Made by a program: the position numbers and the translations under genes. Positions 32,620 to 39,130 of a DNA stretch of 64,000 nt are shown in pieces (position 1 is the first letter of the stretch; each line of letters starts with the position of its first letter). Origin of the DNA: Candidatus Omnitrophota bacterium (lineage in GTDB: Bacteria; Omnitrophota; Gorgyraeia; Gygaellales; Profunditerraquicolaceae); the NCBI GenBank assembly GCA_025453395.1, contig JALOQK010000002.1:149625-213624 (forward strand), given 5' to 3'. The notes beneath the pieces are model-generated. The model worked only from the letters and a program-made list of their open reading frames with translations, searched no databases and had not been told where the DNA came from.

Positions 32620-32805
32620 TTAGATTTCCGCGTCTTTGACCAATTTGCGGTAATAATCAATGCATTCCTGGCAAGCCCCTTTATCTACTTTCCACTTGGG
32701 GTGATCCTTCTTAATAAGTTCTAAAATATATTCTTCAGCTTTGATATGGGCAATGCTTACGTAATCGTCTATTTCACGGTTGCAGATCTGGCATTTGTAT
32801 TTCAT
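32620..32805 (-). CDS. Small zinc-ribbon protein (CxxC...CxxC)
   Basis: 61 aa. CQICN ... CQEC. Confidence 0.4.
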   Translation of the reverse strand: MKYKCQICNREIDDYVSIAHIKAEEYILELIKKDHPKWKVDKGACQECIDYYRKLVKDAEI

Positions 32806-32806
32806 C

Positions 32807-32989
32807 TTATTTGATGCAGTCCTCTCTCCAGCAGCAGCTCATCTGAGCGCATGAATGGTTGGCTGTGCCGAAACAGGATGAAAAACCCTCTTTGGCCTGT
32901 ATTTGTTTGATCAAATCTTTTTTAGAATGTTTCCAGGTGTCTTTTAATCCCAGTTGCTTTGCCTTTTTTTCTACTTCGGTCAATCTCAT
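32807..32989 (-). CDS. Small protein with Rho_N/SAP-like helix-extension-helix N-terminus and Cys-rich C-terminus
   Basis: LTEVEKKAKQLGLKD..KKDLIKQIQ, then CFGTANHSCAQMSCCWREDC. SD aggggggaga. Confidence 0.4.
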   Translation of the reverse strand: MRLTEVEKKAKQLGLKDTWKHSKKDLIKQIQAKEGFSSCFGTANHSCAQMSCCWREDCIK

Positions 32990-33052: not shown

Positions 33053-33772
33053 TTACTCCGGGCTATAAAACGCTTTTTTCAATTTATCCTTGTGCCTTTG
33101 CGCTTGATAGATGTATTCGTAGGTTTCGTCTTGGCTGTAGAGCTTGAATTTCTGGTTTAACGAGCAGGAAGCCAGTTGAATATCTTTTCCTACCTTTCCG
33201 TCCTGTGAAGCAGTTTCAAGTATGGCGTAAGTAGCTAGTTCTAAGGCATGTTTTAAGGTAATTTCCTTGGTGTATAAGGTATTTAATAGATAGGTTGCAA
33301 AAGGCGTAATTCCTATGGACATAAATCCAAGAAGCGTCCAGCGGTGCGGCGCGAAATTGCGTTCGCTGTAAAGAGTGAATATTTCCGGGCAGTTAATAAT
33401 ATTCGCGCCGTTTATATCCTTGCGGTAGCCGCTTATGATAAAATGCAGCGTTGGCCGTTCATCAAAAGTCATCTTGCCGAACCACTCGTTGTATTTATGT
33501 ATCGCGCTTTCCCGGCAGACAGAAAGCATTTCATCTATGCTTAAATTGCGGTAGCCGGGGTTTTTGTGCAGTTGATAATATATAAGGTCAATAATGCTTG
33601 CCCCTAATCCGCCGTCACCGGCAAGGGTGAGGCCGCAGTAATCGCCCAGCTCAAAGACTTTTTTTACCGTGTCGTTTACGGTTGTGGGGCCGCGCGGGTC
33701 GCCGCTTGTAACCCGGCTGTCAGCGGCTAAGGCGATCCCGTCATCGGCGATAATGCTTATGGCAAGGGTCAT
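33053..33772 (-). CDS. Proteasome beta-subunit-like Ntn hydrolase (20S beta/HslV/Anbu superfamily)
   Basis: N-terminus M-TLAISIIADDGIALAADSRVTSG gives Thr immediately after Met (candidate Thr1 nucleophile) and Asp17 in the proteasome-beta pattern. About 239 aa. Confidence 0.6.
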   Translation of the reverse strand: MTLAISIIADDGIALAADSRVTSGDPRGPTTVNDTVKKVFELGDYCGLTLAGDGGLGASIIDLIYYQLHKNPGYRNLSIDEMLSVCRESAIHKYNEWFGKMTFDERPTLHFIISGYRKDINGANIINCPEIFTLYSERNFAPHRWTLLGFMSIGITPFATYLLNTLYTKEITLKHALELATYAILETASQDGKVGKDIQLASCSLNQKFKLYSQDETYEYIYQAQRHKDKLKKAFYSPE

Positions 33773-33773
33773 A

Positions 33774-34157
33774 TTATTTATTTTTATACACTAGATCGTG
33801 CTGCCTTACCCGCGAGATGACCTCTAGGCCTATTTCCTGATTCTTTTTAGCGGTTGATATAGGCGCATGGTCCATCTGCATGGAATTTATGTTTTGGGTA
33901 AAGTCGGTTGTGTGCCCTTTAAAGCGCACTGAATCTCCGGTTGATAACGGCAGTTTTACCTTTATTACGGCTGCGCTTACTTTGGGGAAATAATGCGTGA
34001 CAATCCCCACGATAGTGCCTTCTTGCTTTTTCTTTACGATTTTCTTTTTGGCGGCAGACTTTTTCTTGATTGCTTTTTTTGCCGGCTTTTTTTGGGCTAT
34101 TTTCTTTGCCGGTTTTTTCTTGAGGCGGGTTGTTTTCTTTTTTTTCTTAAGAGGCAT
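33774..34157 (-). CDS. Lysine-rich (histone H1-like) protein with C-terminal EF-Tu domain-2-like beta-barrel
   Basis: The N-terminal 45 aa are K-rich. The C-terminal motif GTIVGIVTHYFPKVSAAVIKV...GDSVRFKG...EIGLEV resembles translation-factor domain II. Confidence 0.5.
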   Translation of the reverse strand: MPLKKKKKTTRLKKKPAKKIAQKKPAKKAIKKKSAAKKKIVKKKQEGTIVGIVTHYFPKVSAAVIKVKLPLSTGDSVRFKGHTTDFTQNINSMQMDHAPISTAKKNQEIGLEVISRVRQHDLVYKNK

Positions 34158-34170
34158 AAGAAACCTCCTT

Positions 34171-34485
34171 TTAAAGGATTATTTTATCTGCGATTTCGGC
34201 AACTACCGGTATACGGGTGTATTTTCCAAGCAAAGCCTGCGTACAGCCCCAAAAGACGAACAGCAAATACAAGAATACAACTATCCTTGATACTATCCAG
34301 CCTAAAAGCGGGATAATATTAATGATCAACCCGGAAACAAGGAGAATGAGAAGCACCAGGCCTTGTTTGCCGTGGAACACAGCGAATTTATTTTCTTTTT
34401 TCAGGATCAAGGGCAGGATGCACAAGAACGGTAAATACCCTGCCATTGCCAGAATTTTAGCTTCCTGAATTTCGTCTTGAGGCAT
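34171..34485 (-). CDS. DUF4870-family small membrane protein
   Basis: KILAMAGYLPFLCILPLIL...FAVFHGKQGLVLLIL pattern and three TM helices. Confidence 0.5.
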   Translation of the reverse strand: MPQDEIQEAKILAMAGYLPFLCILPLILKKENKFAVFHGKQGLVLLILLVSGLIINIIPLLGWIVSRIVVFLYLLFVFWGCTQALLGKYTRIPVVAEIADKIIL

Positions 34486-35582
34486 TATTTAATCTGAAGC
34501 AATGAATTAGTTTGGCCAAAAGGATTTTCTGCTTTTTCCGGATTAGCCGGGTCGTCTGTCCAGGTGCCGTCAATGACAAAGCGGTAATTATATCTTCCCG
34601 GAGAAAGGTTTAATTTTTTCTGCCAGACACCGTTTTCGCGCTGCATAATGCTTGTGTCGTTTAATTCCCAATTGTTGAAATCCCCGACCACATAGACCTC
34701 TTTTGCCTGCGGAGCGCTTAATTCAAATACAAATTCAGCCATTTTGGGAAGCGTTTCTTTAATGGTTTTTTGCATGCGAGTTGCGATTTTTTCCATCTTG
34801 GTTTCTTTTGCGGAATCTTTAGTAGTTGTCGCGCCTGATAAAAGTTCGCGCGATAAGCTGTAATAGTCTTTTGTGCCGCGGCAGTATTTGTCAAAGGCAA
34901 CCACGTGCATACCCTGGGATTGGGCTTCCTTAAGTTTGACGTTGACATGGATAATGGTGTCAAAAAGCCCGCCCTTAAAGTCGGTTTTTATCTTTTCAAG
35001 TATCCTAAAGGAATGCCTAAGCCTTGAATCAAAATTGGTGACCAGTATTTTATGGGTTATCTTATGCCCTAAACGGTCGCGGATAAGCTCTACAATGTCC
35101 ATTAACTGCCCTAAGCCTACTAATGAAAAGCGGCTTGCCTCCACCGGTATAATCACCTCATGGCTGGCGCGAAGCGCGTTAATGGTCAAAATACCTAAAT
35201 TCGGAGGGCAGTCTATTAACATATAATCATAGTTGGATTTAAAATTATTCAGGACTTCCCAAAGGCGCGATTCGCGGCTTATTTCGCCGGCTAATTCCTG
35301 TTCCAGTGTGCTTAGGATAATTCCCGACGGAGCAATGTCAAAATTGGCGGAAACGCTTCTTATGATATCGTCAATGCGTACTTTTTTATTAGTTAATTTG
35401 GAGAGGACATTATAAATATTATATTGGGTATCTATGTTTAACCCAAAAGTCGCGTGCGCCTGCGGATCAAGATCTATTAAAAGGACTTTTTTGCCGTTTA
35501 CTGCCAGGTTTGCCGCCAAGTTGATCGCCGTAGTTGTCTTTCCGCATCCTCCTTTTTGATTCGCCACCGCAATTATGCGCAT
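34485..35582 (-). CDS. ParA/MinD-family P-loop ATPase fused to a C-terminal CBM48 (AMPK-beta-type glycogen-binding) domain
   Basis: Deviant Walker A (IAVANQKGGCGKTTTAINLA) and LIDLDPQ. The C-terminal 80 aa, VYVVGDFNNWELNDTSIMQRENGVWQKKLNLSPGRYNYRFVIDGTWTDDPANP, match the CBM48/AMPK1_CBM consensus. Confidence 0.8.
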   Translation of the reverse strand: MRIIAVANQKGGCGKTTTAINLAANLAVNGKKVLLIDLDPQAHATFGLNIDTQYNIYNVLSKLTNKKVRIDDIIRSVSANFDIAPSGIILSTLEQELAGEISRESRLWEVLNNFKSNYDYMLIDCPPNLGILTINALRASHEVIIPVEASRFSLVGLGQLMDIVELIRDRLGHKITHKILVTNFDSRLRHSFRILEKIKTDFKGGLFDTIIHVNVKLKEAQSQGMHVVAFDKYCRGTKDYYSLSRELLSGATTTKDSAKETKMEKIATRMQKTIKETLPKMAEFVFELSAPQAKEVYVVGDFNNWELNDTSIMQRENGVWQKKLNLSPGRYNYRFVIDGTWTDDPANPEKAENPFGQTNSLLQIK

Positions 35583-35598
35583 AAAGCTCTCCCCCTTT

Positions 35599-36156
35599 TT
35601 ATTTGATAAACCTTACGTTATCCACTAAGACTACGCCTGTTTTAGATTTTGTGTTCCATGCTTCCACGGTAAAATTCAATTTGCTCATTTCTGTCCAGTC
35701 GCTTATATTTTTGAATTCCGAAAGGTTGACGTTGTATTCCTGCCATTTGCGCGGGATGTCCTTTAAATAAACCAAAGAATTCTCCTTGAAAGAATTAGAC
35801 ATCTCTACTTTCATGTTCACGGTGTCGGTGTATTCGTTTTTCTTCAAGGCAAAAGCGATACTTTTATATTTTGTAACATTAAGCCGGTTAAGATTTATAG
35901 TATAAGTTTCTTTTTCCGCCGGGTCAAAATGGAAATTTATTTTGGCGCTTCCCTCTTGAAGGACCAAGGCAATTTGAGTGTTGTTTTTGGCCTTGCGGCT
36001 TCCAAAAGTGAAAAACACCCCCACAATCAATATTATCGCTATGCTAAAGAAAAATATATTCTTTAAGAACGAATAATTCTTTTTCTTCTTGTTTTTCTTC
36101 AGCGACGCGTCAAGGTAGATTTTGGCGAGGTGTTCGTAAATATCCTTTTTTTCCAT
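35599..36156 (-). CDS. Membrane-anchored hypothetical protein (single TM, C-terminal beta-rich domain)
   Basis: K-rich cytoplasmic N-terminus, one TM helix, and a C-terminal domain ending VVLVDNVRFIK (carbohydrate-binding-module-like). Lies in an operon between the GH57 and ParA genes. Confidence 0.45.
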   Translation of the reverse strand: MEKKDIYEHLAKIYLDASLKKNKKKKNYSFLKNIFFFSIAIILIVGVFFTFGSRKAKNNTQIALVLQEGSAKINFHFDPAEKETYTINLNRLNVTKYKSIAFALKKNEYTDTVNMKVEMSNSFKENSLVYLKDIPRKWQEYNVNLSEFKNISDWTEMSKLNFTVEAWNTKSKTGVVLVDNVRFIK

Positions 36157-36189
36157 TTCAAGGATTTATAACACAAAAGTCACTGCCTG

Positions 36190-37743
36190 TCAACAGGTAA
36201 TAGGTGTTTTTAGGTAATCGGGGGGTTGTTTCCCGATGAGTTTATAGAAGTTAGATAAATGCCTTCTAAAAAGCTCATCAAAGGCCTCCGGGCCCTCTCC
36301 GTACCACCAAAACCAGTCGCTTCCTTCGGCAATGTACATTTGCTTCCAGGCCAAATCTGGAATTTTCTCGCCTCTATCTTGCATGTCCTGTAATTCTTTT
36401 CTGGCTATTGCCAGGTATTCCCAGGCGCGCGCCTTGGCAGCGTTTCCGATCCATTTGCCAAATTCCGAATAGATCCAGCTTCCTGCGGCAAGCCGTTTGA
36501 TCTGTTTTTTAGCCGGGAATTTATTCAGGTATTCTTTTACGGTTGTGGTTTGTATATTATCGCTTTCAGAAAGCTTTGTGTAAAGAAGCTCCAAGAAATC
36601 ATGGCCGTCATTTTTATAATATTCCCAGGCGTTTTCTCCGTCCATGGCGATAGTTACCAGGATATCTGTATTTTTAAAAGCGGCGGCGGTATTTTCCAGG
36701 TGCTTCATAAAATCCTCTACCGCGTCTTTGGTGTTCCAGTGGTGGTAAGAAAAGCCGATCATGTCCGAGAGGTTTCGGTCGCGAAATACTACTGCTAACT
36801 CCCCTGCCTCTCTTTTAATTAGATGCGGCTGATAAAGCAATTTAGTGTCTCTTTTTTTGGCGCGCAACGATCTAAAGAGCATAGACTCGTCGGTAACGAT
36901 CCATTTTATGCCCGCGTTCATGATAAAGGGCAAGATATGTTCGCTGACTGCTTCTTCCGAAGGCCACATGCCAACCGGAGAAGCGCCAAATTTATTTTTA
37001 TATAAAGCTACTGCGCTGTCTATTTGGGTTTGGGCGTCTTGGGGATAGGCGAATGCCGGCTTAGGAAGAATAGTTTTGATGTTAGCTTCCTTGGCAACAT
37101 TGGTATTGTATAATAATGGCAGTATGGGGTGATAATAGGGATTGGCAGTAATTTCAATTTGGCCGGTTGCTTGAAACTTGCGGCAGACCGGGATGATCTC
37201 TTCTAAGATATGGGTTTGAGTGTCCAGACAGATGTGCTTATCTTCTTCTGTAAAATCGCGGGCCTTGGCCACAAGCCTGCTTAATTGCGGCAGGTTTTGC
37301 CGGTAATAGGGGTCAATCCAGGCCAGATTAAACCAGACCTGCAGGTCTAGGGTCTCTTGATCGTTGAATTGATGCCCTTGCTTGCGCTTGTAGAAAAGCT
37401 CGTAATAGCGCGGGAAACAGAAGATCACCTTCTCCGGGTTAATCATAAAGAAGTTGTCGCGGATAAAATCGCGTTCTTCCCTTGTTAGTTCAGGCACAGC
37501 CTTATAAGAAAGTTCTAAGAATTTATCTTTAATGGTTCTATTGGTATAATCATCAATTTGCTCTAATAAAGACGGGACAAAATTAAAGGTTTGGTGGATG
37601 CGCGGGAATTTCTCCAGCATCAGGATCATGTCCGCGTAGTCTTTTACCCCATGCAAGCGCACCCAGGGCATGTTGGTTTCCTGTGTCAACAGGTCCTTGT
37701 AATAGGGCTGGTGCATGTGGAAGATAAAAGCCAGATATAACAT
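36190..37743 (-). CDS. Glycoside hydrolase family 57 enzyme (probable 1,4-alpha-glucan branching enzyme / alpha-glucan processing)
   Basis: N-terminal FHMHQPYY (GH57 region I) and a downstream catalytic region. About 517 aa, as for GH57 branching enzymes. Confidence 0.8.
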   Translation of the reverse strand: MLYLAFIFHMHQPYYKDLLTQETNMPWVRLHGVKDYADMILMLEKFPRIHQTFNFVPSLLEQIDDYTNRTIKDKFLELSYKAVPELTREERDFIRDNFFMINPEKVIFCFPRYYELFYKRKQGHQFNDQETLDLQVWFNLAWIDPYYRQNLPQLSRLVAKARDFTEEDKHICLDTQTHILEEIIPVCRKFQATGQIEITANPYYHPILPLLYNTNVAKEANIKTILPKPAFAYPQDAQTQIDSAVALYKNKFGASPVGMWPSEEAVSEHILPFIMNAGIKWIVTDESMLFRSLRAKKRDTKLLYQPHLIKREAGELAVVFRDRNLSDMIGFSYHHWNTKDAVEDFMKHLENTAAAFKNTDILVTIAMDGENAWEYYKNDGHDFLELLYTKLSESDNIQTTTVKEYLNKFPAKKQIKRLAAGSWIYSEFGKWIGNAAKARAWEYLAIARKELQDMQDRGEKIPDLAWKQMYIAEGSDWFWWYGEGPEAFDELFRRHLSNFYKLIGKQPPDYLKTPITC

Positions 37744-37764
37744 TAGGGGGATCCTTAAGGTTAA

Positions 37765-37804
37765 TAAAAAACCCTCGAGGAGTGGCTTCCCCGAGGGTTT
37801 TTTA
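37765..37804. terminator. Bidirectional rho-independent terminator
   Basis: Stem ACCCTCG/CGAGGGT with an A-run upstream and a T-run downstream. It lies between the porin stop and the GH57 start. Confidence 0.6.
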
Positions 37805-37819
37805 TTACATTTTCCGTAA

Positions 37820-39130
37820 TTAGAATGTTACTTTCATTGAACCAACCAATTGATTGGCGTTTTCGCGATAACCATCAGAAAATGCCTTGCCGGGTTTGAA
37901 GAAACCATAGGTAAGCCCTAACTGCACATCTTCAGTGTAATCATAAGCTGCAGTCAAGTCTAAACCATTACCCAGATCTTTACTTTCCATGTTCATTGAA
38001 ACAGCGCTCAAATATACATCTCCGTTAGTATCAAGCTTCTGGCTTGTTAATGAACCAACTCTTTGCGCTAAACGATAATAAGCATAAACAGCTGATAATT
38101 TCAAATCAGCCATAGGCTTAATTGCGCCATTGAGCGAGAATACCTGACAATCCGTAGGAGGTAATATCGCGTTAGCGATATTTGTAGAATTCTGGTCTTC
38201 ATACATATATGTCCATGTTTTGTATTTGTTGTCGCCAGAATTCTTGTCACCCGAAAGGTAAGTATAAGCAAGTCCGATCATGGGTGTCATTTTTACCTTT
38301 GGCATTGCATAATTGGCCATAGCCTGTAATGCCCATGCGCTTATTTTATGCTGTGCAGCATTCGCATTTCCGAATTGATAGGCATATTCCAAAGAAGCAA
38401 GTAAATTTTCAATTTTTGAAGTACTTACAAGGCCGCCTAAGGTGTAGATGTTGGTAGGTTTATTCGCAGTAAAAGTGTGAGCCTTGCTGTCCCAGATATA
38501 ACCTTGAACATTGGTGGTTTTGTCTAAGGCATAGCTAGCGTTGATACCATAAAGATTAGTATCTTGGTTATTTTTAGTTCCTAAAACAGTTTCGTCAATC
38601 TTGGAATAAACTGCGTCAATTACCAATGGGTCATAATTCAAAGTTGCGCGGATAGCATCAAAGGCTTTCCTTAAAGACAGGTCTGAAGGCACGCCATTCA
38701 ATAATGTGCTGCCGGATCCATTTGTATATGTGTTTGATGCGCCGATAATCAGTTTATTGCCAAATGCGATTTCCTGACGTCCGACTTTGACGGTTAAAGG
38801 AGAATATAAAAACTCCTTTAAGGTAACAGAAGCTAAGTCAAGGTTGATGTCAGTGGTGTTTGCTGTTTCTGCGTCCCAGTTTCTTTCGTTAATTAACCTG
38901 ACGGTAGCAGATACCATATCAGTTAGATCAGCATCCACTTTTACGCGGGTCTGGGAAAGAAACATAGATTCAGAAACCTTTGCATTTTCATTTAAATTAA
39001 AGTTATTACGGGCCATTGCAGTAACTGCAAGGTCGCCGCTAACTTTAACATTCTGTACTTCTGCGTATGCCGCGAAGCAAAATCCTACGGCAAACACCAG
39101 CGCCAGAATTACTATTAAGCGTTTATTCAT
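37820..39130 (-). CDS. Outer membrane beta-barrel protein (porin-like)
   Basis: Signal peptide, alternating amphipathic beta-strands, and a C-terminal Phe (VGSMKVTF). Confidence 0.6.
   Translation of the reverse strand: MNKRLIVILALVFAVGFCFAAYAEVQNVKVSGDLAVTAMARNNFNLNENAKVSESMFLSQTRVKVDADLTDMVSATVRLINERNWDAETANTTDINLDLASVTLKEFLYSPLTVKVGRQEIAFGNKLIIGASNTYTNGSGSTLLNGVPSDLSLRKAFDAIRATLNYDPLVIDAVYSKIDETVLGTKNNQDTNLYGINASYALDKTTNVQGYIWDSKAHTFTANKPTNIYTLGGLVSTSKIENLLASLEYAYQFGNANAAQHKISAWALQAMANYAMPKVKMTPMIGLAYTYLSGDKNSGDNKYKTWTYMYEDQNSTNIANAILPPTDCQVFSLNGAIKPMADLKLSAVYAYYRLAQRVGSLTSQKLDTNGDVYLSAVSMNMESKDLGNGLDLTAAYDYTEDVQLGLTYGFFKPGKAFSDGYRENANQLVGSMKVTF

What the first reader, a model, noticed from the sequence alone, without database searches (positions are those of the whole stretch)
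34485..37743. ParA-type ATPase fused to a glycogen-binding CBM48 domain, co-operonic with a GH57 glucan enzyme: candidate glycogen-granule positioning system
The ORF at 34485-35582 has a complete ParA/MinD deviant Walker A ATPase (KGGCGKTT, LIDLDPQ). A linker then joins it to an unmistakable AMPK-beta/CBM48 glycogen-binding module (VYVVGDFNNWE...GRYNYRFVIDGTWTDDPANP). On the same strand it lies 33 bp downstream of a single-TM protein and a GH57 alpha-glucan enzyme, with 16- and 33-bp gaps consistent with one operon. ParA-like ATPases are known to position carboxysomes (McdA), chemoreceptor arrays and PHB granules. In those systems an adaptor protein, not the ATPase, contacts the cargo. A ParA with a built-in polysaccharide-binding domain suggests direct ParA-driven segregation or spacing of glycogen granules. 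I am not aware that this has been described.
Basis: partly seen in the sequence, partly recalled or inferred. Interest (0 to 1): 0.85.

Follow-up and report, generated by a model that had tools for sequence, protein, structure and literature searches.

The report
ParA ATPase with built-in glycogen-binding domain
This Omnitrophota gene fuses a ParA-type cargo-positioning ATPase to a glycogen-binding module and sits beside a membrane-anchored partner and a glycogen-cutting enzyme; the fusion occurs in many bacterial phyla, I found no paper on it, and it may show how bacteria organise glycogen stores.

Summary
On the minus strand, 34485-35582 encodes a 365-aa protein with a Soj-type ParA ATPase (all catalytic motifs intact), a flexible linker and an AMPK-beta-type CBM48. 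Its glucan-contacting residues are conserved. A GH57 amylopullulanase-like enzyme and a 185-aa single-pass membrane protein lie directly upstream (33- and 16-bp gaps).

- The fusion is not a curiosity. At least 129 clusters at 50% identity, from about 15 phyla, share the architecture, an invariant NQKGGCGKTT P-loop and the conserved sugar-binding Trp/Lys/Trp/Asn set.
- The system does have a partner. In Omnitrophota it is most likely the 185-aa membrane protein, which has an invariant N-terminal 18-residue amphipathic helix, a TM segment and a CBM11/30-like domain. In other phyla the downstream gene starts with a ParB-like peptide (LGRGLEDVSHLFLS).
- The GH57 link holds only in this Omnitrophota subclade.

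Best reading: an ATP-switched ParA/MinD-type system that binds and spatially organises cytoplasmic glycogen. The function itself is inferred, not shown. I found no paper describing it. I rate it a new variant of a known kind, of high interest.

The parts
34485..35582 (-). ParA-CBM48 fusion gene (365 aa), cytoplasmic (no signal peptide)
   Evidence: ORF; Pfam AAA_31, CbiA, AMPK1_CBM and CBM_48; an identical protein is annotated 'AAA family ATPase [Candidatus Omnitrophica bacterium]'
34833..35582 (-). Soj-type ParA ATPase domain (residues 1-250). It has the deviant Walker A K10/K15, A' D37/D39 and Walker B D124. It also has the hydrophobic partner-peptide pocket (L129, I131, I134, L166, L171) and K216 at the position of the DNA-binding Arg of M. 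xanthus ParA
   Evidence: PDB matches 8RAY 6e-49, 1WCV, 6IUB; residue mapping using PMC12462528; conservation
34737..34832 (-). Linker (residues 251-282): a disordered stretch followed by a conserved amphipathic helix (about 263-277)
   Evidence: AF2 pLDDT below 50 for 251-264 and helix 263-277; variable length in homologues; hydrophobic moment muH 0.56
34488..34736 (-). AMPK-beta-type CBM48 (residues 283-365) with W305, R334, W341, F355 and N359 at the glycogen-contact positions
   Evidence: Pfam; alignment to AMPK beta1 CBM 1Z0N/1Z0M; pLDDT about 90; conservation across 38 diverse fusions
35599..36156 (-). 185-aa bitopic membrane protein, the candidate ParA partner. Sub-parts: N-terminal invariant helix (residues 1-18, nt 36103-36156), Lys-rich stretch, TM helix (29-52, nt 36001-36072) and a CBM11/30-like beta-sandwich (63-184, nt 35605-35970), predicted periplasmic
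36190..37743 (-). Cytoplasmic GH57 amylopullulanase-like enzyme (517 aa). Conserved sequence regions (CSRs): HMHQP (9), GQIEI (194), WPSEE (260; nucleophile E263), DGENAW (368; acid/base D368), EGSDWFWW (473)
   Evidence: Pfam 4.5e-69; best PDB match is Aquifex aeolicus AaApu 8ZYI/9JLQ at 2e-86; CSRs and dyad by comparison with PMC12106739
37762..37807 (-). 20-bp hairpin with flanking A and U runs (terminator or attenuator-like) between the porin and GH57. It ends about 18 nt before the GH57 start codon
   Evidence: RNA fold -31.2 kcal/mol, z -5.5, matched by 0 of 200 shuffles; sequence
37820..39130 (-). Outer-membrane porin (Alginate_exp / DESULF_POR1-like). It is syntenic upstream neighbour; in the sister clade it lies directly upstream of the TM partner
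   Evidence: Pfam 7.7e-28; NCBIfam; synteny
34171..34485 (-). 104-aa small membrane protein (DUF4870/MamF_MmsF-like). Its start codon overlaps the ParA-CBM48 stop. Membership in the system is uncertain
   Evidence: Weak Pfam hit; TAATG overlap; present in about 60% of Omnitrophota loci
33774..34157 (-). 127-aa protein with a histone-H1-like Lys/Ala/Pro tail and a conserved ~80-aa C-terminal domain. It is conserved downstream in Omnitrophota; membership in the system is uncertain
   Evidence: Sequences; present in most Omnitrophota loci; no convincing Pfam or PDB match

Best explanation
The gene encodes a catalytically competent Soj-type ParA ATPase that carries an AMPK-beta-type CBM48 on a flexible C-terminal tether. 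It belongs to a two-component ParA/MinD-type system for cytoplasmic glycogen.

Proposed cycle:
1. ATP binding dimerises the ParA domain. The dimer presents two CBM48 modules, so weak monovalent glucan binding becomes avid binding to glycogen particles. This is analogous to how dimerisation makes MinD's weak C-terminal membrane helix effective.
2. The dimer probably also binds the nucleoid through retained basic residues.
3. The partner is the 185-aa membrane protein encoded immediately upstream. [quoted passage not shown] This triggers ATP hydrolysis, monomerisation and release.
4. Cycling between glycogen/nucleoid-bound dimers and free monomers, with the activator fixed at the cell envelope, would distribute, tether or partition glycogen particles. 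In this clade it could also gate their access to the co-transcribed cytoplasmic GH57 amylopullulanase.

Shown by sequence or structure analysis: the domain architecture, intact catalytic motifs, conserved sugar-contact residues, a conserved partner pocket, strict gene adjacency and the existence of peptide-bearing partners. Inferred: glycogen binding, DNA binding, peptide-stimulated hydrolysis and any positioning outcome.
For: - Architecture and motifs.
- ATPase residues K10, K15, D37, D39 and D124 are present in 38 of 38 diverse fusions. CBM residues at the positions of AMPK beta1 W100, K126, W133 and N150 are W in 38/38, K/R in 37/38, W in 37/38 and N/D in 35/38.
- The ParB-peptide pocket of M. 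xanthus ParA (V116, L150, L152, L155, L187, L192; PMC12462528) maps to Q95, L129, I131, I134, L166 and L171. Five of six are hydrophobic, and all are invariant or nearly so in the close family. The DNA-binding R238 maps to K216, which is K/R in 27 of 38.
- Partner: 15 of its first 18 residues are invariant in 30 of 30 homologues, against 62% mean column identity for the whole protein. AF2 predicts an N-terminal helix, a TM helix and a beta-sandwich. The sandwich resembles CBM11, CBM8 and CBM30.
- Adjacency: TM gene followed by ParA-CBM48 in 64 of 67 metagenome loci, and GH57 followed by the TM gene in 52 of 59. The TM gene was detected in all 25 Omnitrophota-type GTDB loci and in the four other-genome loci L003-L006 inspected.
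- In other phyla the gene immediately downstream of the fusion starts with [RK]xLx[DE][VI]SH[LF]F[LF]S, often LGRGLEDVSHLFLS. This contains the LGRGL core that I recall from ParB N-termini (e.g. T. thermophilus Spo0J; from memory, not read in PMC12462528). The strict motif occurs in 20 of 52 loci against 3 of 1952 background ORFs (p about 6e-43).
- The fusion family is large and old: 129 of the top 150 50%-identity clusters and about 15 phyla.
- The GH57 is a complete AaApu-like enzyme; AaApu hydrolyses glycogen.
- Omnitrophota MAGs are reported to encode glycogen synthesis (PMC8542988).
- No ParB and no second ParA in the window, and no ParB in any of 90 loci.
Against: - No experiment exists. 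Glycogen binding, DNA binding and peptide stimulation all rest on homology.
- In canonical ParA systems the activator sits on the cargo. Here it is anchored in the membrane, with its folded domain predicted outside the cytoplasm, so a simple nucleoid ratchet for granules does not follow.
- The Omnitrophota peptide (HLAKIYL / LADIYF) resembles the SHLFLS/LGRGL peptide of other phyla only loosely (two residues shorter), so their equivalence is an inference.
- Covariation between pocket residues and partner type is confounded by phylogeny.
- Association with glucan genes is weak outside this clade. GH57 occurs only in one Omnitrophota subclade, GlgB in 1 locus and a PGM/PMM-like gene in 10 loci. 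No glgA, glgC or glgP lies near any fusion, and none is in the window.
- The R238-equivalent basic residue is missing in 11 of 38 fusions.
Whether active positioning of granules matters in such cells is unclear.
Confidence: 0.5

Rival explanations
1. Glycogen-status sensor. As in AMPK, the CBM48 reports the amount or state of glycogen, and this modulates the ParA ATPase or dimer cycle. The real output would be something else: positioning or regulation of the membrane partner and the envelope structure its periplasmic CBM-like domain contacts, or regulation of replication or division as Soj does.
For: - The CBM is of the AMPK-beta subtype, which is regulatory.
- Partner bodies are highly variable (degenerate MinD-like, HTH+RodZ_C, AAA_22, TM+CBM-like) while the ParA-CBM48 is constant. 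This suits a common sensor coupled to different outputs.
- Several partners are envelope-spanning.
- The ParA domain is close to chromosomal Soj/ParA, at about 39% identity to M. xanthus ParA.
Against: The long, variable, disordered linker (8-362 aa) argues against allosteric coupling between the CBM and the ATPase and favours a tether. No regulatory target is encoded nearby. In this clade the operon partner is a glycogen-degrading enzyme.
Confidence: 0.17
2. MinD-like membrane tether. The ATP-dimer binds the membrane (through the conserved amphipathic linker helix and/or the partner's N-terminal helix) rather than the nucleoid. It anchors glycogen particles, or nascent or degrading glucan, under the envelope next to the bitopic partner, with no segregation role. 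Glycogen or the membrane would be the ATP-dependent binding surface, and DNA would play no part.
For: - The partner is membrane-anchored with its N-terminus inside. RodZ_C- and AAA_22-type partners occur in other phyla.
- A conserved amphipathic helix lies in the linker (muH 0.56).
- The DNA-binding Arg equivalent is not conserved in 29% of fusions.
- The C-terminal placement of the surface-binding element mirrors MinD's membrane-targeting helix (established knowledge of MinD).
Against: The closest relatives of the ATPase domain are DNA-binding Soj/ParA proteins, and K216 (with R235 and K238 in the close family) is retained here. The linker helix is not conserved outside Omnitrophota. Many partners in other phyla have no TM segment.
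Confidence: 0.2
3. It is simply the chromosome-partitioning ParA (Soj) of these bacteria, as the database annotations say, with an accessory domain. It would work with ParB/parS encoded elsewhere.
For: - JGI names it 'chromosome partitioning protein'.
- The best structural relatives are chromosomal ParA and Soj.
- The ParB-peptide pocket is retained.
- I could not inspect whole genomes for a second Soj/ParB pair.
Against: - It is never adjacent to parB in about 90 loci from about 15 phyla. Instead it is fixed next to its own peptide-bearing partner.
- It occurs in Myxococcota MAGs. The one myxobacterium studied, M. xanthus, has a separate ParABS system (PMC12462528); whether these MAGs do is assumed, not checked.
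- The invariant CBM48 sugar-binding residues indicate selection for glucan binding.
- No NCBIfam partition model reaches its cutoff.
Confidence: 0.05
4. The CBM48-like module binds something other than storage glycogen, such as another alpha-glucan, a capsular or cell-wall precursor, or a protein. The GH57 adjacency would then be incidental synteny.
For: GH57 is absent next to the fusion in the sister clade and in all other phyla. The surrounding gene order (PPDK, sigma70, PHP, porin) is also conserved, so some adjacency reflects general synteny. I recall, without having tested it here, that some CBM48 modules in GH13 enzymes do not bind glucan.
Against: The AMPK-beta contact set (Trp, Lys/Arg, Trp, Asn) is conserved across phyla. 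The PDB matches of the CBM segment are AMPK-beta CBMs, starch phosphatases SEX4/LSF1, pullulanases and GlgB, plus the yeast AMPK-beta homologue SIP2. Toxin-antitoxin and AbiEii insertions occur between the porin and GH57 but never inside the GH57-TM-ParA triad.
Confidence: 0.08

Closest known systems
Chromosomal ParA/Soj of ParABS systems (M. xanthus ParA 8RAY, T. thermophilus Soj 1WCV, H. pylori Soj 6IUB)
   Same: Same fold and subfamily, with about 39% identity to M. xanthus ParA. It has the deviant Walker A with the signature Lys, A' and B motifs, a hydrophobic pocket for an N-terminal partner helix, and a basic residue at the DNA-binding Arg position. In other phyla the partners carry an LGRGL motif like that of ParB N-termini.
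   Different: It has a C-terminal CBM48 on a flexible tether and an invariant Cys in the P-loop (KGGCGKT). It is never next to parB. Its partner is not a CTPase clamp but, here, a bitopic membrane protein with a CBM-like ectodomain. No parS-type cargo is evident.
MinD/MinE
   Same: A ParA/MinD-fold ATPase whose surface-binding element is appended at the C-terminus and would become effective on ATP dimerisation. The activator contacts the dimer interface through a short helix. The partner is at the membrane.
   Different: The surface-binding element is a folded glucan-binding domain, not a membrane-targeting helix. The sequence is closer to Soj than to MinD (MinD PDB hits at only 1e-11). There is no MinC or MinE.
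McdA/McdB carboxysome positioning, and other orphan ParA cargo systems (PpfA/TlpT, PomXYZ)
   Same: An orphan ParA-like ATPase dedicated to a non-DNA cytoplasmic cargo, with a lineage-specific partner whose N-terminus is expected to activate the ATPase. The McdA structure 6NOO is a detectable relative (1.7e-14).
   Different: In those systems the adaptor, not the ATPase, binds the cargo. Here the cargo-binding domain is on the ATPase, and the activator is anchored elsewhere (in the membrane in Omnitrophota).
AMPK beta-subunit CBM and other AMPK1_CBM proteins (SEX4, LSF1)
   Same: Same CBM48 subfamily, with the W100, K126, W133, L146 and N150 equivalents conserved (the residue roles are from my knowledge of the AMPK beta1-cyclodextrin structure 1Z0M).
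   Different: It is fused to a P-loop positioning ATPase rather than to a kinase scaffold or a phosphatase, and the context is a bacterial cytoplasm.
PhaM/PhaP-type PHB granule-nucleoid tethering
   Same: The concept is shared: attaching a storage-polymer granule to the nucleoid or another cell structure to secure its distribution.
   Different: PhaM is not an ATPase. There is no sequence relationship, and the polymer differs.
BcsQ (ParA/MinD ATPase of the cellulose secretion complex)
   Same: A ParA/MinD-family ATPase linked to a polysaccharide machine at the envelope. The Pfam CBP_BcsQ hit is 2e-11.
   Different: The hit is much weaker than to AAA_31/Soj and below the NCBIfam cutoff. No bcs genes are nearby, and the ligand is a cytoplasmic alpha-glucan rather than secreted cellulose.

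Membership tests
ParA/MinD (deviant Walker A) ATPases | Deviant Walker A KGGxxGK[ST] with an N-terminal signature lysine | tested here: met
   NQKGGCGKTT at residues 8-17. K10 and K15 are invariant in 22 close and 38 diverse homologues.
ParA/MinD (deviant Walker A) ATPases | Walker A' and Walker B acidic residues | tested here: met
   D37 and D39 (LIDLDPQ) and D124 (LIDCPP) are present in 38 of 38 sequences. D39 aligns with D60 of M. xanthus ParA.
ParA/MinD (deviant Walker A) ATPases | Profile match above the curated threshold | tested here: met
   Pfam AAA_31 at 191 bits (cutoff 27) and CbiA at 70 bits (cutoff 25.4).
ParA/MinD (deviant Walker A) ATPases | ATP-dependent sandwich dimerisation and ATP hydrolysis | not testable with these tools
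   Needs biochemistry. Only the motif integrity is shown.
Chromosomal Soj/ParA of ParABS | Operon or functional pairing with ParB/parS | tested here: not met
   No ParBc Pfam domain on the genes called in the three annotated loci, which cover all of the window except its first ~2.7 kb. No tblastn hit to Spo0J in the whole window or in 90 loci. Whole genomes could not be inspected.
Chromosomal Soj/ParA of ParABS | Basic residues for non-specific DNA binding (M. xanthus R238 / B. subtilis R189 position) | tested here: inconclusive
   K216 here, and K/R in 27 of 38 diverse fusions. DNA binding itself is untested.
Chromosomal Soj/ParA of ParABS | NCBIfam equivalog score (ParA_partition, partition_RepA) | tested here: not met
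   107 bits against a cutoff of 180, and 110 against 348.
ParA-type cargo-positioning system (ATPase plus activating partner) | A partner protein with a short N-terminal helix that docks at the dimer interface | tested here: inconclusive
   A candidate was found: the invariant N-terminal 18-mer of the 185-aa protein. The pocket residues are conserved. ParB-like LGRGL..SHLFLS peptides occur on neighbours in other phyla. The interaction itself is not tested.
CBM48 / AMPK1_CBM glycogen-binding modules | Profile match above the curated threshold | tested here: met
   AMPK1_CBM at 52.6 bits (cutoff 26.8) and CBM_48 at 36.3 bits (cutoff 22.4).
CBM48 / AMPK1_CBM glycogen-binding modules | Conserved glucan-contact residues (AMPK beta1 W100, K126, W133, L146, N150) | tested here: met
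   W305, R334, W341, F355 and N359. Across 38 fusions these are W 38/38, K/R 37/38, W 37/38 and N/D 35/38.
CBM48 / AMPK1_CBM glycogen-binding modules | Beta-sandwich fold | tested here: met
   The AF2 model shows strands over 283-364 with pLDDT 81-92.
CBM48 / AMPK1_CBM glycogen-binding modules | Demonstrated binding to glycogen or alpha-glucan | not testable with these tools
   Requires pull-down, ITC or a glycan array.
GH57 amylopullulanase/alpha-amylase-type enzymes | Five conserved sequence regions and the Glu/Asp catalytic dyad | tested here: met
   HMHQP9, GQIEI194, WPSEE260 (E263), DGENAW368 (D368) and EGSDWFWW473, compared with AaApu CSRs and E256/D352 (PMC12106739). PDB match at 2e-86.
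CBM11/CBM30-like beta-jelly-roll modules (C-terminal domain of the 185-aa protein) | Fold similarity | tested here: met
CBM11/CBM30-like beta-jelly-roll modules (C-terminal domain of the 185-aa protein) | Sequence-profile membership or known ligand-binding residues | tested here: not met
   No Pfam or NCBIfam hit for the window protein. The ligand is unknown.

The most novel reading that the evidence does not exclude
ParA-CBM48 proteins would define a third class of ParA/MinD switch, one that uses a storage polysaccharide rather than the nucleoid or the membrane as its ATP-dependent binding surface. Lineage-specific partners bearing a ParB-derived N-terminal peptide would be anchored at the envelope or elsewhere and would reset the switch. 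Together they would form a widespread, previously unrecognised system for inheritance or positioning of glycogen granules, or for access control to them, in at least 15 bacterial phyla.
Probability: 0.3. Interest if true: 0.9.

Novelty: new variant of a known kind. Interest (0 to 1): 0.8.

Why it matters
How bacteria place, inherit and mobilise glycogen is largely unknown. To my knowledge no dedicated positioning machinery has been described for glycogen, unlike chromosomes, plasmids, carboxysomes, chemoreceptor arrays or PHB.

A ParA ATPase that carries its own glucan-binding domain, conserved across many phyla together with peptide-bearing partners, gives a concrete and testable candidate. 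It also inverts the usual ParA logic, because the cargo binder is on the ATPase and the activator is anchored elsewhere. That would broaden the design principles of the ParA/MinD family.

The ParB-like LGRGL..SHLFLS peptide grafted onto unrelated proteins suggests a modular way in which ParA partners evolve.

In practical terms, it would correct the widespread database annotation of these genes as 'chromosome partitioning protein'.

Tried and rejected
The full-length alignment worked.
- The sigma-70 promoter scan was at chance level (18 sites found against 18.5 expected). The terminator scan missed the strong porin-GH57 hairpin (compare).
- Canonical glg genes next to the fusion: only one GlgB (L069), and no GlgA, GlgC or GlgP in about 90 loci. 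I therefore dropped 'embedded in a glg operon' as an argument.
- The second downstream family in other phyla looks NucS/PD-(D/E)xK-like by eye, but the only PDB profile hit is E 0.096 and Pfam finds nothing. I left it as a lead.
- The C-terminal domain of the Lys-rich 127-aa protein has no meaningful PDB match.
- Pocket-peptide covariation is real but follows phylogeny, so I do not count it as independent evidence.
- I could not test whether the same genomes also carry a canonical parAB pair, because the tools give only flanks of 10 kb or less. A literature search for Omnitrophota plus ParB gave nothing useful.
- One Pfam call failed on bad coordinates. As a result, the first ~2.7 kb of the window (ORFs 4-1707 and 1844-2554) was never scanned against Pfam. 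It is covered only by the ParA HMM and the ParB tblastn.
- I rejected a plasmid or phage origin. The context is housekeeping (dnaE, SMC, aminoacyl-tRNA synthetases, sigma-70) and composition is uniform.

Full report
**Observation.** All genes of the finding lie on the minus strand.
- GH57: 36190-37743, 517 aa.
- A 185-aa protein: 35599-36156.
- The 365-aa fusion: 34485-35582.
- Gaps: 33 and 16 bp, as stated.

Pfam confirms both halves of the fusion above curated cutoffs: AAA_31 2.1e-56, CbiA 2.1e-19, AMPK1_CBM 5.5e-14 and CBM_48 7e-9. GH57 scores 4.5e-69. An identical protein sits on a 542-kb contig of a Candidatus Omnitrophica/Omnitrophota MAG. Base composition is uniform and the neighbours are housekeeping genes, so this is chromosomal sequence.

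**Anatomy of the fusion.**

ATPase domain:
- Residues 2-249 match chromosomal ParA/Soj structures best: M. xanthus ParA 8RAY 6e-49, T. thermophilus Soj 1.7e-36, H. pylori Soj 3.9e-36. McdA and MinD are far weaker.
- Identity to M. xanthus ParA is about 39%.
- The deviant Walker A (K10, K15), A' (D37, D39) and Walker B (D124) are invariant in 22 close and 38 diverse homologues.

Partner pocket and DNA-binding position, using the M. xanthus study (PMC12462528) and the HMMER alignment:
- The DNA-binding Arg R238 corresponds to K216.
- The hydrophobic pocket that receives the ParB N-terminal helix (V116, L150, L152, L155, L187, L192) corresponds to Q95, L129, I131, I134, L166 and L171.
- The numbering is validated by D60 aligning with D39.

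Linker and CBM48:
- Residues 251-264 are disordered in the AF2 model and vary in length among homologues. A conserved amphipathic helix follows (about 263-277). Residues 283-365 form a confident beta-sandwich.
- Aligned to the AMPK beta1 CBM (1Z0N/1Z0M, 1.8e-10), the positions I know as cyclodextrin/glycogen contacts (W100, K126, W133, L146, N150) are W305, R334, W341, F355 and N359.
- Across 38 fusions sharing only 34-47% identity they are W 38/38, K/R 37/38, W 37/38 and N/D 35/38. That is the signature of selection for glucan binding.

**The operon.**
- A 20-bp hairpin flanked by A and U runs lies between the porin gene and GH57 and ends about 18 nt before the GH57 start (-31.2 kcal/mol, z -5.5). 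The porin is therefore at least partly a separate unit.
- No comparable structure separates GH57, the 185-aa gene and the fusion. The fusion's stop overlaps the start of a DUF4870-like membrane protein, and a Lys-rich 127-aa protein follows after 13 bp.
- The GH57 has all five family motifs and the Glu/Asp dyad (E263, D368). It is most similar (2e-86) to Aquifex aeolicus AaApu, a catalytic-domain-only amylopullulanase that cleaves alpha-1,4 and alpha-1,6 bonds and degrades glycogen. It has no signal peptide, so it should act on intracellular glucan.
- The window holds no glgA, glgB, glgC or glgP, no ParB and no second ParA.

**The 185-aa protein is probably the partner.**
- It has no Pfam or NCBIfam match. 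It has 548 homologues, and every one that carries a source name is Omnitrophota.
- In 30 homologues averaging 62% column identity, 15 of the first 18 residues (consensus MDKKDIYEHLAKIYLDAS) are invariant. A Lys-rich stretch, a poorly conserved TM helix and a 125-residue domain follow.
- The positive-inside rule puts the N-terminus in the cytoplasm and the CBM-like domain in the periplasm. This is an inference.
- The N-terminal helix has a hydrophobic face (I6, Y7, L10, I13, Y14, A17) with K12 on the opposite side. That is the layout described for the ParA-binding helix of ParB.
- Adjacency is near-absolute. The TM gene lies immediately upstream of the fusion in the four other-genome loci L003-L006 examined. 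By blastp it was detected in all 25 Omnitrophota-type GTDB loci. Starting from the TM protein, 64 of 67 metagenome loci have the fusion within 200 nt downstream.

**The family is large.**
- An exhaustive HMMER search of 50%-identity representatives put 129 ParA-plus-single-CBM48 proteins among the top 150 hits. Their linkers are 8-362 aa.
Of the 80 best loci, 78 cover the query through the CBM48.
- They come from Omnitrophota, Myxococcota, Desulfobacterota, Zixibacteria, Eisenbacteria, Krumholzibacteriia, Gemmatimonadota, Rokubacteria, Auribacter, Margulisbacteria, several Planctomycetota orders, Spirochaetaceae, Anaerolineales, Acidobacteriota and a Thiogranum.

**Partners elsewhere.** In 57 loci from these distant lineages there is no homologue of GH57 or of the 185-aa protein.
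- Instead, the gene immediately downstream begins with a conserved peptide, [RK]xLx[DE][VI]SH[LF]F[LF]S. It is often LGRGLEDVSHLFLS, and in Myxococcota MPRDLADVLHYFLP.
- The strict core motif occurs in 20 of 52 such neighbours against 3 of 1952 other ORFs (p about 6e-43).
- LGRGL is the core I recall from ParB N-termini (e.g. T. thermophilus Spo0J; from memory, not read in PMC12462528). The peptide is grafted onto unrelated bodies: a degenerate ParA/MinD-like domain, an HTH+RodZ_C protein, an AAA_22 protein and unknowns.
- A further, often second-downstream family is possibly NucS-like (E 0.096 only).
- Lineages at 43-48% identity (L035, L037, L040, L045, L048) have an upstream TM protein with LAD[IV]YF or ELAKTYF and a CBM30-like domain. 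These bridge to the Omnitrophota HLAKIYL motif.
- Pocket residues differ systematically between TM-type and SHLFLS-type lineages (T92/L129/I131/I134/I163 against A92/V129/L131/F134/T163), but this follows phylogeny.

**How strong is the glycogen link?**
- The direct evidence is the CBM48 itself.
- Genomic context helps only partly. GH57 is adjacent in the clade with ParA at 56% identity or more (18 of 30 loci, and 52 of 59 in the reciprocal set). In a sister Omnitrophota clade the porin lies directly upstream of the TM gene. GH57 is absent elsewhere.
- A PGM/PMM-like gene lies within about 5 kb in 10 loci from three phyla, and GlgB in one.
- Omnitrophota MAGs are reported to encode glycogen synthesis (PMC8542988).

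**Mechanism (inferred).**
1. ATP dimerises the ParA domain. Two tethered CBM48s then bind glycogen avidly, which parallels MinD's C-terminal membrane helix.
2. Retained basic residues may also hold the dimer on DNA.
3. The membrane-anchored partner's N-terminal helix docks in the interface pocket, stimulates hydrolysis and releases monomers.
4. The outcome would be dynamic tethering, distribution or partitioning of glycogen relative to the nucleoid and envelope. In this clade it might also coordinate with GH57 degradation.

I put 0.5 on this family of readings. The rivals:
- AMPK-like glycogen-status sensor controlling another output: 0.17.
- Purely membrane-based MinD-like tether: 0.20.
- Non-glycogen ligand: 0.08.
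- Plain chromosomal ParA: 0.05. This is disfavoured by the absence of parB in about 90 loci, by the dedicated partners and by the fusion's presence in Myxococcota MAGs, given that M. xanthus has a separate ParABS system.

**Comparison and novelty.** The protein is a bona fide ParA/MinD ATPase of the Soj branch and a bona fide AMPK1_CBM/CBM48 module. It fails the tests for a ParABS ParA, having no ParB pairing and scoring below the NCBIfam equivalog cutoffs. Functionally it is closest to orphan ParA cargo systems such as McdAB, but with the cargo binder moved onto the ATPase. Full-text searches found nothing for ParA with CBM48 and glycogen (237 papers held all three words; none of the 20 listed concerns such a fusion), for ParA/MinD with glycogen, positioning and carboxysome, for ParA-like with 'glycogen granules', for AMPK1_CBM with ParA, or for ParA with MinD and 'glycogen-binding'. 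The library is limited to open-access papers and preprints, so absence is not proof.

**Limits.** There is no experimental evidence of any kind. Whole genomes could not be inspected for glg genes or a second parAB pair. Peptide-pocket docking could not be modelled. My gene calls in high-GC loci are crude. The equivalence of the Omnitrophota peptide with the SHLFLS peptide is a judgement.

Noticed in passing
window 37762-37807 (minus strand): A very stable 20-bp hairpin flanked by A and U runs lies between the porin stop and the GH57 start. It ends only about 18 nt before the GH57 ATG (-31.2 kcal/mol, z -5.5). It looks like a bidirectional terminator or a read-through attenuator. Where GH57 transcription starts is unclear.
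   Followed up: partly
window 33774-34157 (minus); homologues in L003-L006 and L011-L032: A 127-aa protein has a histone-H1-like Lys/Ala/Pro-rich N-terminal tail and a conserved ~80-aa C-terminal domain (GxVTHYFPKVxAAVIKxKxPL...). It is conserved one or two genes downstream of the fusion throughout Omnitrophota. It could be a nucleoid-associated protein. No PDB or Pfam match was found.
   Followed up: partly
window 34171-34485 (minus): A small membrane protein with a faint DUF4870/MamF_MmsF match starts on the stop codon of the ParA-CBM48 gene (TAATG overlap). It is present in about 60% of the Omnitrophota loci.
   Followed up: partly
window 33053-33772 (minus): A 239-aa protein with an N-terminal proteasome/Ntn-hydrolase match (Pfam Proteasome 3e-12) lies one base after the Lys-rich gene. 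blastp found no homologue in any of the 80 GTDB loci, and none is called in the four other-genome loci L003-L006.
   Followed up: no
window 32620-32989 (minus); L003-L005: Two adjacent Cys-rich mini-proteins of 60 and 61 aa (one has CxxC...CxxC) are conserved in sequence and order across Omnitrophota loci, just downstream of the cluster.
   Followed up: no
L047, L050, L052-L055, L062, L072, L079, L082 and others (loci): Outside Omnitrophota the common layout is a three-gene unit. It consists of ParA-CBM48, then a protein with the LGRGL..SHLFLS peptide and a degenerate ParA/MinD-like domain, then a ~200-aa protein of unknown family (IDLLAVD... motif, faint NucS similarity).
   Followed up: partly
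ParA-CBM48 residue 13 (window about 35544-35546) and all homologues: The P-loop carries an invariant Cys (KGGCGKT) in 38 of 38 diverse fusions, where ParA proteins usually have Val, Ser or Ala. This made NQKGGCGK a useful family signature. Its functional meaning is unknown.
   Followed up: no
P0241: A 1812-aa protein with 18 matched stretches to the CBM48 segment was the top-scoring hit of the exhaustive search. Several other CBM48-only repeat proteins (698-1436 aa) also appeared. None has a ParA domain.
   Followed up: no
L003 2914-4898 and L005 1245-4842: Mobile defence or toxin-antitoxin genes (AbiEii, PhdYeFM/ParE, a 23S-rRNA-IVP-like gene) are inserted between the porin and GH57 in two relatives, but never inside the GH57-TM-ParA triad.
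   Followed up: partly
ParA-CBM48 residues about 258-277 (window about 34752-34811): The conserved linker helix (consensus LEKKMxEILKExLPKL) is among the most amphipathic segments of the protein (muH 0.56). It could pack on a domain, mediate oligomerisation or act as a membrane-binding helix. It is not conserved outside Omnitrophota.
   Followed up: partly
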